A stretch of DNA of 64,000 bases from Desulfatiglandales bacterium (lineage in GTDB: Bacteria > Desulfobacterota > DSM-4660 > Desulfatiglandales > Desulfatiglandaceae). Where the stretch lies: assembly GCA_963666345.1 (NCBI GenBank), contig OY762721.1, positions 2,912,001 to 2,976,000 on the forward strand. Direction: 5' to 3'. Made by a program: the position numbers. Shown piece by piece: positions 33,001-57,000 of this stretch; position 1 is the first letter of the stretch, and every line of letters starts with the position of its first letter.

Positions 33001-36000
33001 CTGGACAGGGTTCCACCTTCAAGGTTTACCTGCCCAAGGTGAAGGGAGATGTTAAGGGGGAGGAGAAAGAACGAACCCCAGTAATCAAACTTGCCGGTTT
33101 TGAGACCGTTTTAATTGTAGAAGATGATGATAGCCTTCGGAAACTTACTCAAAAGTCTCTCCAGCCCCATGGATACAGAATACTTGTGGCTGAAAACGGC
33201 GAAGATGCCTTGAGAGTAAGCAAGGAGCACGAGGGAACGATTGATCTGCTGATCACTGATGTGGTGATGCCCAGGATGGGCGGTAAGGAAGTCGCAGAAC
33301 GGCTGCAACCTCTCCACCCACAAATGAAGATAATTTACATGTCCGGATATACTGACGACTCTATTGTTCATCGCGGTGTTCTGGCACCGGGACTTAATTT
33401 TCTCGAAAAGCCTTTTTCACCGGCAGGTTTGGCGCGCAAAGTGCGGGAGGTGCTGGACAAATGAAGCAGGTTACTCGTTGCCGGTGACTGGATACTGGTT
33501 GAAAAGAAAAACGAGGAACGTGTTTTCCGAAAGTCAAGTATCATTATCGAATGGTTGAGAATTTGGCCGCTTTGAAAACTCAAAGATACTGGATGTATCT
33601 TTTCGACATGGTCGGTGTAAATATCATTATCCTAACCTGGACTATTCGCGGGTCCCTATTTTCAAGAATACCGGAACAGGAGGAAACGATGGTAAAAATT
33701 AAGAAATCACCTGACGATTCCGGACTCAGGCGACGGGCCGAGGAAAAACTGAAAGAAGCGTCCAGACGTAGCGAAGATCTCTCCGGAGTGTCGCCCGAAA
33801 AAATGGCACATCTCATCCACGACCTTCAGGTTCATCAGATCGAGTTAGAAATGCAGAATGATGAACTCCGGCGCATCCAAGGGGAACTTGAACTAACGCG
33901 GGACAAGTATGCTCATCTGTACAACTTTGCGCCGGTCGGTTATTTTACAATGAGTGAAACTGGGGCCATCGAAGAGGCCAATCTCACCATCTCTTCCATG
34001 TTAGGGTTAGAACGGAGCGCCTTGATCGGAAAACCCTTCAACCGCTTTGTTCTGAGAGAAGACAAGGACATTTTCTATAAACATCGGCGACGTCTTTTGG
34101 AGACAGAGGCGCCCCAATCCTGTGATCTACGGCTAATGAAAAAAGACGGTCATGAGTTTAATGTCCGTATGGAAGGCATGGTCATAAAAAACAGGGGTAA
34201 CGATTTAAGGCAGATCAGGTCGGCGGTCAACGACATTACTGAACTCAAACAGGCAGAGAAAACGATAAAGGAACATTCTGAGACACTGGAGAAACGGGTC
34301 GATTTTTTACAGAGGATGGAAGCCATGGGTATATTTGCCGGGGGCATTGCGCATGATTTCACCAATCTACTGACAGTCATCATAAGTTACTCAAATTTTG
34401 CGTTAGACGGAGTTGGGCCGGAAAATGACATTCGAGAGGATATTGAAAAAATTATCCAGAATGCGAAACTCGGCGTATCGTTAGCTCATCAGCTCCTGCT
34501 TTTCAGTTGCAATATCCCGGTTGAGCAAAAAATTACGAATCTCAATGAATTGATAAGCGACATGGAAAAGATGCTAAGGCGTGTTATTACAAAGAAGATA
34601 GATCTGATGATTTTGCTGGAACCGGAGTTAGGCCGGGTCTTAGTCGATTCTGGCAAGGTGCAACTAATGATAATAAACCTTGTGGTCAATGCAGTCGATG
34701 CGATGCCCGAAGGGGGGCTGCTTACAATTGCGACTGCAAATGAGGAATCAGGCGAGCGCCCCATTCAAAAGGACAGCTCCGGTCATCAGGGGCCGAAAAT
34801 TGTGCTGTCGGTAAGTGACACGGGTATCGGTATGGACGAAGAGACCGTATTAAAAATATTTGAACCTTTCTTTACGACCAAAAAAAAGGGGGTGGGGACA
34901 GGGCTGGGCCTGGCCATTGCTTTCGATGCTGTTAAAGAAAACGACGGATTCATAAGGGTTTACAGCCGGCCGGGACATGGATCGACCTTTAAGATCTATC
35001 TGCCAAGAGTGCACGAGAAATGAGCGGTCGGGACTGGGCGAAGCGATTATTATCTTTGGGGTTGGAGTCTCTTGATGTCAGATCCTGAACAACGGCTTTA
35101 TTAACCTGGCAAGAGCGTTTTATTGGCATGAAGAATGCTTCCCTTATAGTTTTTAACACACCGTCCACTTGCCGTTCGACCCTGAGGCTCACAATGGGAG
35201 GCGGGGAGCCTCATTCATGGAACGATTGCCTTCACACGTTTTCCACACGGATGGACACATCGCTCTGTATGGAGGTTGCTCCATAAAAATATGGAGCTAT
35301 CACTATGGAATAAATTCCATATATTTTTACAAAAGGCTGACTCTCGATGAAAAAAACAAACAAAGGCGCCGGTCCGGAAGTTATAGATAAAAAGCTTATA
35401 CACATTCCCATCATCCATACCGAAGCCGATATGGGAAGACTGAGCGGACCGGTGCGGCAAGCAGCCCTTCAAAAACTGGGAATAAGGGGCATAAAAAGAA
35501 AGGTCGATTTAATCGATAAAATCTGGACGGTAATTGAAAAGACCGTCGAGGGACTGGACCTGTCGTTTGAAAAAGTTCGCCTCTATCAGGACGGGTTACC
35601 TGTTTGCGGCAATGAGTCCGGGATTGTTACTGACTTGGCTGCGTCAGGAAGCAGAAACCACCGGCTACTTATGCGTTTGATGGATAAAGGGGCCCTGATT
35701 ATGGGGACCGAATCGCCGGAACTCCTCCTGGAAGAATATGAACTCACAAAAAAAAATCTTACTGCAGGCGGGAATTTGAAATCGATGAAGATCGAAGCGC
35801 ACCAGAAGCCGGTGAGTGATTCCCTGCTGAAAAGGCGTGATCAATTCATCGCGGATCGAATCAACGATACACTGTGTCCGGGGGAAACGGGAATATTGTT
35901 TTTAGGTATGCTTCACTCGTTGGGGCCTTTGCTGGACGAGCAAATCAAGGTTGTTTATCCGATTCCCGGACCGTTTAATCGATGGAGCCGAATGGCATGA

Positions 36001-54000: not shown

Positions 54001-57000
54001 TGCGAAATTAAGCGTTGGATACATGGTTTTCGCCCGCAAGGGCAAAGCGACTGAAGACGAGGAGGTCGAATTATGGGTCGGATTACTGACGTTTTGAATT
54101 ATCGACTGAAGAATAAAGGGTTTGAGCCAGTTGCGATCCCCAGGTTTATAAAGGATGTGGTCCATGCCGTTTCCGTTAATCACCAAATCGGACTGACGGA
54201 GATGAATAGACGATTGTGCCTGTTAGGCTGGGACCCCATCGAATTGGATCACCACACGCTGCAATTGATCATCGCGAGCAATGAAAAGGATTCGGTCCTC
54301 CCGGAGAGAATGTTGACTTAATATTGGTCCGGTATTCATTGTGATGAAGAAAAAGAGGTATTATGGCGGCAGTCATCAAACACTATTTGAATCCTTTGCA
54401 TATCTATTGCCGGTTGAGGAACATAGGAATCCGAAAAACCATGGCAATATCACCCTGCCGTTGTTATGAGCGGGTCCTTTTCAAGCGTTTTTTAAAATAG
54501 AAAAGGGGAGAGGAAGGGAAGATTTCCAGGTGATGTGAAGGCCGGATCCTTAAGAGGAAGATCAAGACGGAGATGACATATCCGAAAAGGGAGCTTGAAA
54601 AACAAAAAAGTATGGAAGGTGTGGCATAATTATCAACGCACCGGTACGGTATGGGTATTTTTGGACAAGAAAGGTATTAGGAATGGCTGAAAAACCTGCC
54701 TATGAAGAATTGAAGCAAAGGCTTAAGGAGTTAGAGAAAACAGCCCTTAGGTGCAAGCGGGCAGAGGAGGACGAAAAGGATAAGCTGCAGGCGCAGTTGG
54801 TAAACGCCTTGGAAATGGCCCATTTAGGCCGATGGGAATATGATGTCGCCAATGACCTCTTCACGTTCAATGACCATTTCTACAAAATATTTCGCACCAC
54901 AGCCAAGCAAATCGGCGGGTATACGATGTCATCGGCTGAATACGCCCGTCGCTTTGTCCATCCTGACAATATGACTGTTGTCGAAGAAGAAAATCGAAAG
55001 GCGATTGAAGCAACCGATCCCAACTTTAGCCGGCAACTGGAACACCGCATACTTTATGACGACGGTACCATAGGACATATTTCCGTTCGGTTTTTCATCG
55101 TCAAGGACGCCCAAGGCCTTACAGTCAGTACCTATGGAGTGAATCAGGATATCACAGACCGCAAGAGGATGGAGGAGGCGTTGCGGAAGAGCGAGGAACA
55201 CTACCGCAGCATTTTCGAGGATTCGAGAGATGCAGTCTATATTACCACTCGAGATCAATACTGTCCGGTTAACAAATGTCTAATTTAAGCTGAGCTGAAC
55301 AGCTACCCTTATTTGAAATAGCAGGTGGCGGTTCAAATAGCTCCCTTAAGGAACAACTCCTAAAAAGATTGAGTTGCAGAATCCTAAGAAGATTCTGCAG
55401 GCTGACTTTAATGCGAAATAATAATTTCAGGTAACACAGTAGAAGATACGCGATTAATGCAACATAAATCTGTGAGAGGACCGCGTTTTTAGAATTGCCT
55501 ATGAAAGCCTTGATTTTAAGGTTCTGTTTGATCCAGCGGAAGAATATCTCTATTTTCCATCGCTCTTTGTAGATATCGGCAATTGTTTTTGCAGCCAGCT
55601 TGAAGTTATTGGTAATAAATACATAGTGATGTCCCGTTTGGGGGTCACGATAGCCTATCCTCCTTAATTGATAAGGGCACTGTTGTATTCCTTTTACACC
55701 GTTAAGCAAGATGGTCTGATCTGATGTCAAGCCCTGCTTTTTTTTAATCTCACGGCGTTCAGTGACCCTGTAAACGGCATTACGCTTTTGTCTTGTGACA
55801 AAAAACAGGTTGTTTTTCTCAAGGGATGCAAACCAGCTGTAATCGGTGTAAGCCCGATCAGCAACCACAATGGAGCCTTTGGGCAATCTAAGACATCGAG
55901 CGATCTCTATCTCATGTGTTTTAGCCTCTGAGATGGAGACAAAACTGGGTAGATAGCCATCATGATCCAACACGGTGTGCAGCTTAATGCCCGCCTTGGT
56001 CCTTCTGAAGGATGCCCAGGGAAATACACTGAGGCATAGATCGATCACAGAGGCATCCATACTGTAGAGTTTGTTTTTAAACTTAAATTTATGCTTAGGG
56101 GCGATACCGGAGCATTTACGATACATACGGTAAAATAAAGCCTCATAGAAAGAGGCTGGGCGGTTGTTGTTGGCATCGGAAAAGGTTGAGCGGGCAACGG
56201 GCGTGGCTCCCAGGTGATAAAGGCTGCTGGATCTGGCCTTTAAGCTTTGGATACCGTCTCTGAGGCTTACTCTGGAGGTCAGTTGCATAAACATCAGATG
56301 GACGAACTGATTCCATCGGCTAAAGGAGCGGGGTTTTCTGCCTGTGCCGTGCTGATTTTCAAGGGTTGAAAAAACATGTCTTGGTATAATTTTAAGCATA
56401 GAATTAAAAAGTGTGGTATGATGAGCCATAGTCCGGATTCTCCTTTCTGTTTAGTGTGTTATGGCTAACATCATTATAACAGATTACGCGGAGAGTTCGG
56501 ACTTTTTTTATCCCTTAACCGGACACTATTGACTCGAGATGGTAAGTTTATTGACGCAAACCAATCTGCACTTGATCTCTTTGGCTATAGTAGAGAAGAG
56601 ATGGCATCGGTGAATGCCCTTCAACTATATATGCATCCTGTTGATGCAAGCAGGTTTCAGAAGGAGATAGAGGAAAAGGGATTTTTGAGCGACTATGAAG
56701 TAACGTTCCGTAAGAAAGATGGTACGGAGATAAACAGTTTGTTTAGTACGACTCTCCGACGAGCAAATGATGGAAGCATTCTGGCATACCAGGGCATTAT
56801 ACGTGATATGACTGAGCACAAGAAACTTGAAGCCCAGTTCATCCAGTCCCAGAAGCTGGAGGCCATAGGCAATCTGACAGGGGGGATTGCCCACGACTTC
56901 AACAATCTCTTGACCGCCATCATCGGAAATGCCGATCTGGCGATCGGAGATGCGGGGAAGGATTCGCCCCTCTATGAGTTATTAGAAGAGATCAGGGAGG

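What a model noticed while it worked through the whole genome (the two positions that open the first line are those of the whole stretch)
35347..54321. An archaeal-type Cdc48 AAA ATPase is a fixed member of the gas-vesicle gene cluster of Desulfatiglandales
The genome's Cdc48/p97 (g02573, 56% to Archaeoglobus Cdc48; rare in bacteria) lies inside a ~20-gene gas-vesicle cluster between two Hsp20 genes, with gvpA/J/K/S/G/N, three gvpL/F, a double-domain ArsA and sigma-54/two-component regulators; a kaiCB pair follows. In relatives Cdc48 is embedded in the gvp cluster every time, pointing to a dedicated unfoldase step in gas-vesicle assembly or recycling.
Evidence so far: Cdc48 orthologues in 20 of 209 order genomes; in 12 of 12 loci read (60-80% identity, 8 genera) cdc48 sits among gvpN/gvpL-F/gvpA-J genes, with Hsp70 in 9 and Hsp20 in 3. 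CDC48_N in 3.9% of bacteria, 85% of archaea.
(Added by a program. Inside this text positions count along the whole contig: contig position 2,912,001 is position 1 of the stretch shown here. "Call 12" and the like, gene names such as g00115 and contig names such as C1 are that model's own, and its searches are not shown. The text may have been shortened before it was handed on; [...] marks where a part breaks off. The agent that wrote the report below was given it as the finding of a first reader that could run no searches.)

Follow-up and report, generated by a model that had tools for sequence, protein, structure and literature searches.

The report
GvpZ, the gas-vesicle Cdc48 unfoldase
The Cdc48-type protein-unfolding motor in this gas-vesicle gene cluster is real but is almost certainly the already named accessory gene gvpZ of Serratia-type clusters, found in many bacterial phyla and dispensable in Serratia, and its job, probably quality control of the sticky shell protein, has never been measured.

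Summary
The genes are there: an intact Cdc48 (37924-40047) between two Hsp20 genes in a complete gas-vesicle cluster. [quoted passage not shown] Deleting gvpZ leaves vesicles in Serratia, so an obligatory assembly step is ruled out there. The link is not special to Desulfatiglandales: 75 of the 79 nearest loci, from about 11 phyla, have gvp genes; gvp-linked copies form one clade; the order holds two unrelated cluster types plus three stand-alone Cdc48s. No HbYX tail, no 20S proteasome. Best reading: an accessory holdase-unfoldase pair for GvpA quality control. Added here: the ORF at the gvpY position has a TIKI/EreA/ChaN fold, occurs almost only in gvp genomes, and is missing with gvpH and gvpZ in one cluster, so a holdase-unfoldase-peptidase turnover module is possible. 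This scan noted the Cdc48-gvp link before on other DNA (eight notes shown, one naming GvpZ).

The parts
35347..36000 (+). ORF at the gvpY position; 217 aa; predicted TIKI/EreA/ChaN fold, possible peptidase or hydrolase
   Evidence: No Pfam/NCBIfam hit itself; weak TraB_PrgY_gumN hit in 26 of 52 relatives; model pLDDT 87.7; best folds ChaN Z 9.4, HopBA1 8.0, PMT 7.1, EreC 6.5; named gvpY by position only
35982..37409 (+). sigma-54 (NtrC-type) response regulator, GvrA position
   Evidence: Response_reg, Sigma54_activat, HTH_8
37402..37914 (+). Hsp20, GvpH position; best model is archaeal Hsp20
   Evidence: PF00011; NF041800 122 bits, cut-off 140; directly upstream of cdc48 in 70 of 73 loci with room upstream
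37924..40047 (+). Cdc48/VAT-type double-ring AAA+ ATPase = GvpZ
   Evidence: TIGR01243 over cut-off; best solved relative VAT 5G4F, E 6.9e-201; Walker A/B, arginine fingers and pore loops intact
40044..40610 (+). second Hsp20, a minority insertion together with the next receiver
   Evidence: PF00011; best match in only 6 of 79 loci
40679..41101 (+). single-domain response regulator
41013..41903 (+). GvpL/F (GvpF2 position)
   Evidence: PF06386
41921..42328 (+). four-helix-bundle protein (TIGR02436), insertion
   Evidence: rare in the 79 relatives
42381..43184 (+). GvpL/F (GvpF3 position)
   Evidence: PF06386
43194..44666 (+). PAS histidine kinase, GvrB position
44697..45092 (+). single-domain response regulator, GvrC position
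45267..45282 (+). sigma-54-type -24/-12 site (GG-N10-GC) about 70 nt before the gvpA start
   Evidence: same pattern upstream of gvpA in 14 of 62 loci against 2 of 223 control regions
45355..45573 (+). GvpA, major shell protein (72 aa from the ATG behind a ribosome-binding site)
   Evidence: NF006874 over cut-off
45736..46830 (+). GvpC-position repeat protein with C-terminal helix-hairpin-helix
   Evidence: internal periods of 73, 40 and 33 residues; HHH_5; GvpC by position and repeats only
46913..47878 (+). GvpN AAA+ ATPase
   Evidence: TIGR02640 345 bits, cut-off 266.8
48039..48362 (+). conserved 107-aa ORF, GvpV position
   Evidence: homologue in 52 of 79 loci; no family hit
48672..48956 (+). 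small zinc-ribbon ORF
   Evidence: homologue in 37 of 79 loci; weak Zn_ribbon hit
49008..49772 (+). GvpL/F (GvpF1 position)
49931..50212 (+). GvpG
50335..52422 (+). two-domain ArsA/Get3-family ATPase
   Evidence: in 32 of 79 loci; known gvp associate (PMC2963123)
52442..52705 (+). GvpA-family minor protein (GvpA2/GvpS position)
52699..53184 (+). GvpK
53246..53626 (+). second four-helix-bundle insertion
53655..53984 (+). GvpA-family minor protein (GvpA3/GvpJ position)
54073..54321 (+). 82-aa ORF of unknown kind at the cluster end
   Evidence: no family hit; homologues beside two other clusters (L115, L173)

Best explanation
The gene is gvpZ, an accessory member of a widely travelled, sigma-54-controlled gas-vesicle cluster of the Serratia ATCC 39006 type. 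It encodes a catalytically intact Cdc48/VAT hexamer that was recruited to gvp clusters once and has stayed with them. Shown by sequence: two active-looking ATPase rings with aromatic pore loops, an N-domain, tight coupling to an archaeal-type Hsp20 (GvpH), no proteasome-docking tail, no 20S proteasome in the genome. Inferred: GvpH holds newly made or mis-assembled hydrophobic GvpA-family subunits, and GvpZ uses ATP to thread and release them from aggregates or defective shell, for re-use through GvpF/L or for degradation. This raises yield and robustness of vesicle formation but is not an obligatory step; shell elongation is the job of GvpN/GvpV.
For: Order gvrA-hsp20-cdc48-gvpF2-gvpF3-gvrB-gvrC matches the Serratia operon (PMC4982088 passage) and recurs in the 79 nearest loci. 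Serratia table (PMC4046660 supplement 2): or0697 gvpA1, or0710 sigma-54 regulator, or0711 Hsp20, or0712 CDC48 ATPase, also measured as protein; with the extra ORF between gvpC and gvpN gvpZ is exactly or0712. Catalytic motifs invariant in 51 relatives. Phylum sample: 29 of 32 gvpN genomes have CDC48_N against 17 of 369 others, a 30th has a contig-split copy; 22 lie within 10 kb on one contig. The 25 gvp-linked copies form one side of a branch (SH-aLRT 91) apart from 20 stand-alone bacterial and 5 haloarchaeal copies. Cluster types that lack an adjacent Hsp20 carry J-domain fusions and Hsp70 instead, which points to a proteostasis need. In E. coli, deletions of gvpC, H, W, Y or Z 'reduced or eliminated' signal and opacity (PMC10344784).
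Against: gvpZ deletion preserves vesicle formation in Serratia, and gvpH deletion changed neither shape nor stability. One Serratia-type cluster (G518) has the regulator directly followed by gvpF2, i.e. lacks the pair. No substrate, partner or activity is shown. The linkage has one origin, so it is one event kept, not many. L029 has the gvpY-like gene, hsp20 and cdc48 with no other gvp hit in 18.6 kb. Identity with Serratia GvpZ rests on position and annotation; I could not align the two proteins.
Confidence: 0.6

Rival explanations
1. Turnover module: GvpH, GvpZ and the TIKI-fold protein at the gvpY position form a holdase-unfoldase-peptidase chain that takes apart collapsed or surplus vesicles, GvpZ extracting GvpA and the TIKI-fold protein cutting it (or processing a Gvp protein).
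For: TIKI/EreA/ChaN fold with invariant H24, Q81, D82, E122, E130, R164, H190 in 52 relatives. The family was found in 30 of 401 phylum genomes, 29 of them with gvpN and none of the 17 with a stand-alone Cdc48. It stays near cdc48 in several different gene orders and is not found in G518, which also lacks gvpH and gvpZ. GvpZ has no tail for a 20S particle, so a partner peptidase is not otherwise accounted for.
Against: The best-matching folds (ChaN, HopBA1, PMT C2) include proteins without peptidase activity (PMT lacks the 2His/2Glu motif, PMC6254334; ChaN is titled heme-binding); the acidic residue expected after the second strand appears as Gln-Asp (my reading of the motif, no superposition); identities are 10-11%; several 20-kb stretches of the second cluster type show no gvpY-like gene; G518 is a 90% complete bin.
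Confidence: 0.2
2. GvpZ remodels or removes regulators (GvrA/B/C) rather than shell protein, tuning expression of the sigma-54 gvpA operon.
For: In the window's cluster type it is transcribed with the regulators, not with gvpA, and a sigma-54 site precedes gvpA.
Against: In the second cluster type, and in Methylocella and Methylosinus plasmid clusters, cdc48 lies among structural and assembly genes; gvpF2 and gvpF3, essential assembly genes, share the regulator operon.
Confidence: 0.08
3. Passenger: a general stress pair (hsp20-cdc48, as in archaeal heat-shock regulons) that was captured once next to gvp genes and serves the cell at large.
For: Hsp20 directly precedes cdc48 in 3 of 6 haloarchaeal plasmid loci read (not in 58, 60, 62); both are heat-shock induced in archaea (PMC5852551); single origin; dispensable in Serratia.
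Against: Kept inside the cluster through many rearrangements and cross-phylum transfers; clade-specific N-domain residues such as R23, P30, K55, R133, D143; its transcript falls with gvpA1 in the rsmA data; loss of signal on deletion in E. coli.
Confidence: 0.12

Closest known systems
GvpZ and the gvrA operon of Serratia sp. ATCC 39006 (PMC4982088; PMC10344784; PMC4046660 supplement)
   Same: [quoted passage not shown]
   Different: A second Hsp20 and a receiver are inserted behind cdc48; a two-domain ArsA lies where Serratia has gvpW; two four-helix-bundle insertions; no sequence comparison with the Serratia protein was possible.
VAT of Thermoplasma acidophilum (PDB 5G4F) and archaeal/eukaryotic Cdc48/p97 (TIGR01243)
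   Same: N-D1-D2 layout over residues 9-676, Walker A/B, arginine fingers, KFYG and QYVG pore loops against KYYG and KWVG.
   Different: Shorter, variable C-terminus with no HbYX motif in the gvp-linked copies; host has HslUV but no 20S; tied to one organelle's gene cluster.
ArsA homologues with Hsp20 in gvp clusters (PMC2963123)
   Same: Two-domain ArsA and hsp20 among gvp genes, including a delta-proteobacterium.
   Different: That paper has no mention of cdc48 in its main text.
[quoted passage not shown]
   Same: Bacterial Cdc48-family double-ring ATPase without a classical HbYX tail.
   Different: Cpa is a separate clade that binds the 20S particle; the paper places other bacterial Cdc48s within the archaeal group as transfers, which fits this protein.
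TIKI/EreA/ChaN superfamily (TraB/PrgY/GumN, ChaN, HopBA1, RRSP, Ere)
   Same: Predicted fold and two conserved histidines of the ORF at 35347-36000.
   Different: Small stand-alone domain confined to gvp genomes; catalytic set only partly recognisable; no activity shown.

Membership tests
Cdc48/VAT (TIGR01243) | Score over the curated cut-off across the whole length | tested here: met
   889.6 bits against 802.65, residues 9-707
Cdc48/VAT (TIGR01243) | N-domain plus two AAA domains with Walker A/B, arginine fingers and aromatic pore loops | tested here: met
Cdc48/VAT (TIGR01243) | Hexamer with ATP-driven unfoldase activity | not testable with these tools
   inferred from homology to VAT and p97
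Cdc48-20S proteasome partnership | C-terminal HbYX motif and 20S subunits in the genome | tested here: not met
   tail ends in IEEVK, tails of relatives vary; the genome's single PF00227 match is HslV next to HslU; genome 96.7% complete
GvpZ (Serratia ATCC 39006) | Gene after gvrA and gvpH and before gvpF2 and gvpF3 | tested here: met
   the window has two extra genes between cdc48 and gvpF2
GvpZ (Serratia ATCC 39006) | The Serratia gene at that position encodes a CDC48-subfamily ATPase | tested here: met
   or0710/or0711/or0712 annotations in PMC4046660 supplement 2; ORF count from gvpA1 fits with the extra ORF; the table does not use the name gvpZ
GvpZ (Serratia ATCC 39006) | Direct sequence orthology with the Serratia protein | not testable with these tools
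   no named Serratia 39006 record came up; nearest named gammaproteobacterium is Shewanella salipaludis L057, 68%, same order of genes
Serratia-type gas-vesicle cluster | gvpA1, F1, G, A2, K, A3, F2, F3, gvrA, gvrB, gvrC plus gvpN and gvpV present and intact | tested here: met
   against the list in PMC4982088; gvpV by position only
Serratia-type gas-vesicle cluster | sigma-54 promoter upstream of gvpA | tested here: met
   pattern at 45267-45282; 14 of 62 against 2 of 223; pattern match, not a mapped start
Serratia-type gas-vesicle cluster | Gas vesicles are made | not testable with these tools
   uncultured genome; related clusters work (Desulfobacterium vacuolatum cluster gave vesicles in E. 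coli)
TIKI/EreA/ChaN superfamily (ORF 35347-36000) | Parallel beta-sheet core flanked by helices, matching known members | tested here: met
   ChaN Z 9.4 rmsd 3.5 over 156; HopBA1 Z 8.0 rmsd 3.7 over 145; PMT Z 7.1; EreC 6.5; RRSP 5.9; Foldseek best hit ChaN only E 0.077; best unrelated rows reach Z 6.4-6.8
TIKI/EreA/ChaN superfamily (ORF 35347-36000) | 2His/2Glu catalytic set of the active hydrolases | tested here: inconclusive
   H24 and H190 invariant, with D82, E122, E130 as candidate acids; no residue-level superposition was available

The most novel reading that the evidence does not exclude
Bacterial gas-vesicle clusters of this lineage encode their own disassembly line: an archaeal-type small heat-shock protein (GvpH), a Cdc48 unfoldase without a proteasome (GvpZ) and an unrecognised TIKI-fold peptidase (GvpY position), which together extract and degrade GvpA from collapsed or mis-assembled shells. 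This would give a mechanism for gas-vesicle turnover, a proteasome-independent Cdc48-peptidase pairing in bacteria, and functions for three genes of the bARGSer ultrasound reporter whose deletion lowers signal.
Probability: 0.2. Interest if true: 0.7.

Novelty: new member of a known kind. Interest (0 to 1): 0.33.

Why it matters
How gas vesicles are proof-read, and what happens to collapsed ones, is open. GvpZ is listed as 'unknown function' in the gas-vesicle papers I read although it is a textbook unfoldase; saying so makes the question testable at once, because a Serratia deletion strain and E. coli expression constructs already exist and a substrate-trap allele is routine. The same genes are part of an ultrasound reporter cassette, so their function bears on vesicle yield. 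The genomic association itself is old and widespread, so this window adds one more example; the fold assignment for the gene at the gvpY position is the freshest element.

Tried and rejected
One orthologous set in the order: rejected, two cluster types and a stand-alone group. Independent recruitments: not supported, one branch (FastTree left the two alphaproteobacterial copies outside the starred clade; IQ-TREE quick placed them inside at 91; no bootstrap, unrooted, few archaea). Proteasome partner: rejected. kaiCB as part of the cluster: rejected (kaiB alone follows gvpJ in 1 of 79 loci). Clusters seeming to lack Cdc48: G163 has it, frameshifted like several neighbours (probably sequencing errors); G560 has it split over contigs; G355 and G039 end at a contig edge where it would lie; only G518 is a clean loss. 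Expression: four metatranscriptomes hold contigs of relatives (mostly 85-99% alike) over gvpA and parts of cdc48, but contigs cannot show transcription or level, so nothing is drawn from them. ESM Atlas for ORF 35347: only unnamed clusters. Profile search of the PDB with its alignment: nothing significant. Sigma-70 promoter and terminator scans: at chance level. Direction of transfer from archaea: not tested, since no broad archaeal sample with names could be drawn; it rests on PMC6017811. Fisher tests ignore kinship and are not used as evidence. Paper searches for an explicit Cdc48 or unfoldase role in gas vesicles listed none; of the 8 papers I saw only the listing; the library lacks most subscription papers, among them the first description of the Serratia cluster and the overproduction study, which may name GvpZ as an AAA ATPase.

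
Full report
Observation. The stretch 35347-54321 is one strand of closely packed genes. 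Family scans give, in order: an unassigned 217-aa ORF, a sigma-54 response regulator, Hsp20, Cdc48, Hsp20, a receiver, GvpL/F, a four-helix-bundle protein, GvpL/F, a PAS kinase, a receiver, GvpA, a repeat protein, GvpN, two small conserved ORFs, GvpL/F, GvpG, a two-domain ArsA, a GvpA-family gene, GvpK, a second four-helix-bundle protein, another GvpA-family gene and an 82-aa ORF. The Cdc48 (37924-40047, 707 aa) passes the TIGR01243 cut-off (889.6 against 802.65), is the only full-length copy in the genome and has VAT as its closest solved relative. Walker A/B motifs, arginine fingers and the first pore loop are invariant or nearly so in 51 relatives; the second pore loop is K/Q/M-W/Y-V-G. The count of 20 of 209 order genomes was reproduced.

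What it is. The order of genes is that of the Serratia ATCC 39006 locus. [quoted passage not shown] Its text has no occurrence of 'AAA'. [quoted passage not shown] With the extra ORF between gvpC and gvpN (bioRxiv 10.1101/2021.04.26.441537, passages), gvpZ is the sixteenth ORF from gvpA1, that is or0712. GvpZ is therefore a Cdc48 and the window's gene is its positional counterpart. I could not align the two proteins. PMC10344784 (passages; 12 of 22 supplement files searched, the figure not seen) states that deletions of gvpC, W, X, Y, H or Z preserve vesicles in Serratia, while in E. coli deletions of gvpC, H, W, Y or Z reduced or eliminated ultrasound signal and opacity; it also found that a Desulfobacterium vacuolatum cluster makes vesicles in E. 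coli. ArsA with Hsp20 in gvp clusters is described in PMC2963123 (passages). Reviews PMC9501494, PMC11267810 and PMC7376271 (passages) give GvpZ no function.

Range. The 79 nearest loci among GTDB species (61-84% identity; best 80 of 524 confirmed matches) come from about 11 phyla, including Acidobacteriota, Verrucomicrobiota, Planctomycetota, Chloroflexota, Myxococcota, Shewanella salipaludis and Desulforhopalus vacuolatus. 75 of 79 have gvp genes within 10 kb; three of the other four are short or end at the gene, and L029 is a true exception with only the gvpY-like gene and hsp20. Hsp20 lies directly upstream in 70 of 73 loci with room. The two best plasmid hits (54%, Methylocella and Methylosinus) also sit at the end of gvp clusters; eleven weaker plasmid hits that I read (45-52%; five alphaproteobacterial, one of them without annotation, and six haloarchaeal) list no gvp gene. 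In a sample of 401 phylum genomes, gvpN is in 32 and CDC48_N in 46; 29 have both, 22 of them within 10 kb on one contig (lists compared by hand). Of the three gvpN genomes without CDC48_N, G560 has a split copy, G355 ends at a contig edge, and G518 has the regulator directly followed by gvpF2, a clean loss of hsp20 and cdc48. The 17 genomes with CDC48_N but no gvpN carry copies of 45-54% identity with no gvp hit in the 5-15 kb fetched.

Within the order. All 20 over-cut-off copies have gvp neighbours, but they are of two kinds: four of the window's type (80-84%) and sixteen of a second type (60-63%; gvpN-gvpF-cdc48-gvpF/J-domain fusion-gvpF-gvpG-gvpO, with DnaJ zinc-finger genes and Hsp70 at the end). 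Three more, under the cut-off, stand alone. Of 22 order genomes with gvpN, 20 have a gvp-linked Cdc48, G163 has a frameshifted one among other frameshifted genes, and G039 cannot be judged. In the trees the window's protein groups with Acidobacteriota, Verrucomicrobiota and Shewanella copies, not with the sixteen from its own order (165 rows, FastTree; seven loci without an intact frame and one duplicate left out), and 25 sampled gvp-linked copies form one side of a branch (SH-aLRT 91) against 20 stand-alone bacterial and 5 haloarchaeal ones. So the association arose once as far as sampled, and the order received two versions of the cluster separately. The repeated linkage is not independent evidence, but its survival through many rearrangements is.

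How it probably works. Shown: intact motor, N-domain with clade-specific residues, no HbYX tail, no 20S proteasome, only HslUV, an adjacent Hsp20 whose best model is the archaeal one, and a sigma-54 site before gvpA (45267-45282; 14 of 62 loci against 2 of 223 controls). From the literature: Hsp20 and Cdc48 are co-induced in archaeal heat-shock regulons (PMC5852551, passages), and non-actinobacterial Cdc48s of bacteria group with archaeal ones (PMC6017811, passages). Inferred: GvpH holds and GvpZ unfolds hydrophobic GvpA-family subunits from aggregates or faulty shell, an accessory quality-control step (0.6). This fits dispensability in the native host, a defect under heavy heterologous expression, and the J-domain and Hsp70 genes in the second cluster type.

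An addition. The first ORF (35347-36000) has no family hit, but 26 of 52 relatives match TraB_PrgY_gumN weakly (best E 0.00055). Its model (pLDDT 87.7) aligns best to ChaN (Z 9.4), HopBA1 (8.0), PMT (7.1) and EreC (6.5), with RRSP at 5.9, proteins that PMC6254334 (passages) groups in the TIKI superfamily, EreC by its family name; unrelated folds reach Z 6.4-6.8 and Foldseek alone gives only E 0.077. H24, Q81, D82, E122, E130, R164 and H190 are invariant. The family was found in 30 of the 401 genomes, 29 with gvpN, none among the 17 with stand-alone Cdc48, and not in G518. It lies where Serratia has gvpY, but that name is by position only. A holdase-unfoldase-peptidase module for vesicle turnover is thus possible (0.2); the catalytic set is only partly recognisable and several members of the fold are not enzymes.

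Earlier notes of this scan. Eight notes on other genomes describe the same Cdc48-Hsp20 link in gvp clusters, one naming GvpH/GvpZ and one mentioning a hydrolase-like protein. I had reached the GvpZ reading before looking and tested it on papers and loci; the hydrolase remark was a lead for examining ORF 35347, though I cannot tell whether it meant the same protein (searches found no note with those words).

Verdict. Real, well linked, but a further example of a known cluster and a named gene, not an order-specific novelty and not an obligatory step. New member of a known kind; interest 0.33, carried by the untested unfoldase function and the fold assignment at the gvpY position.

Noticed in passing
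L110-L124, L127, L138-L140 (e.g. L112:3049-19934): A second gvp cluster type in the order: two gvpA copies, GvpF fused to a J-domain, two DnaJ zinc-finger genes, gvpO, Hsp70 at the end and in some a DnaK-related DUF3731 gene upstream; some (G011, G137, G128) have two gvpN copies.
   Followed up: partly
L154 (G518:C103:675-2860): Serratia-type cluster in which the sigma-54 regulator is followed directly by gvpF2; hsp20, cdc48 and the gvpY-like gene were not found in this 90% complete genome: a natural deletion of the module.
   Followed up: yes
L129, L101, L142 (G039, G194, G014) and L156-L172: Stand-alone Cdc48s of Desulfobacterota (45-54% identity) in several clades outside the gvp clade; in the order they lie beside a GntR regulator or 2-oxoacid:ferredoxin oxidoreductase genes.
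   Followed up: partly
window 41921-42328 and 53246-53626: Two four-helix-bundle (23S rRNA IVP / bAvd-like, TIGR02436) genes inserted in the cluster, with short repetitive low-complexity flanks; such insertions also dot L001, L111, L115 and L122.
   Followed up: no
window 55269-56429 and 56529-62504: An IS4 transposase interrupts a PAS kinase region (54683-55288 and 56529-57989 may be parts of one gene); 58195-59962 looks like a hybrid kinase split into two frames; kaiC and kaiB follow without kaiA in the window.
   Followed up: partly
window 28675-30939: A 754-aa protein with two divergent AAA domains (weak IteA/CdvC-like scores, far under cut-off) about 4 kb upstream of the cluster.
   Followed up: no
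L137 (G163:C5:189500-209499): Close relative of the window's cluster with frameshifts in cdc48, hsp20, gvpF3, the kinase, gvpN, gvpV and arsA: either decay of the whole cluster or sequencing errors.
   Followed up: partly
L029: gvpY-like gene, hsp20 and cdc48 (76%) in a Schekmanbacteria contig with no other gvp hit in 18.6 kb: the three-gene module may occur detached from the structural genes.
   Followed up: no
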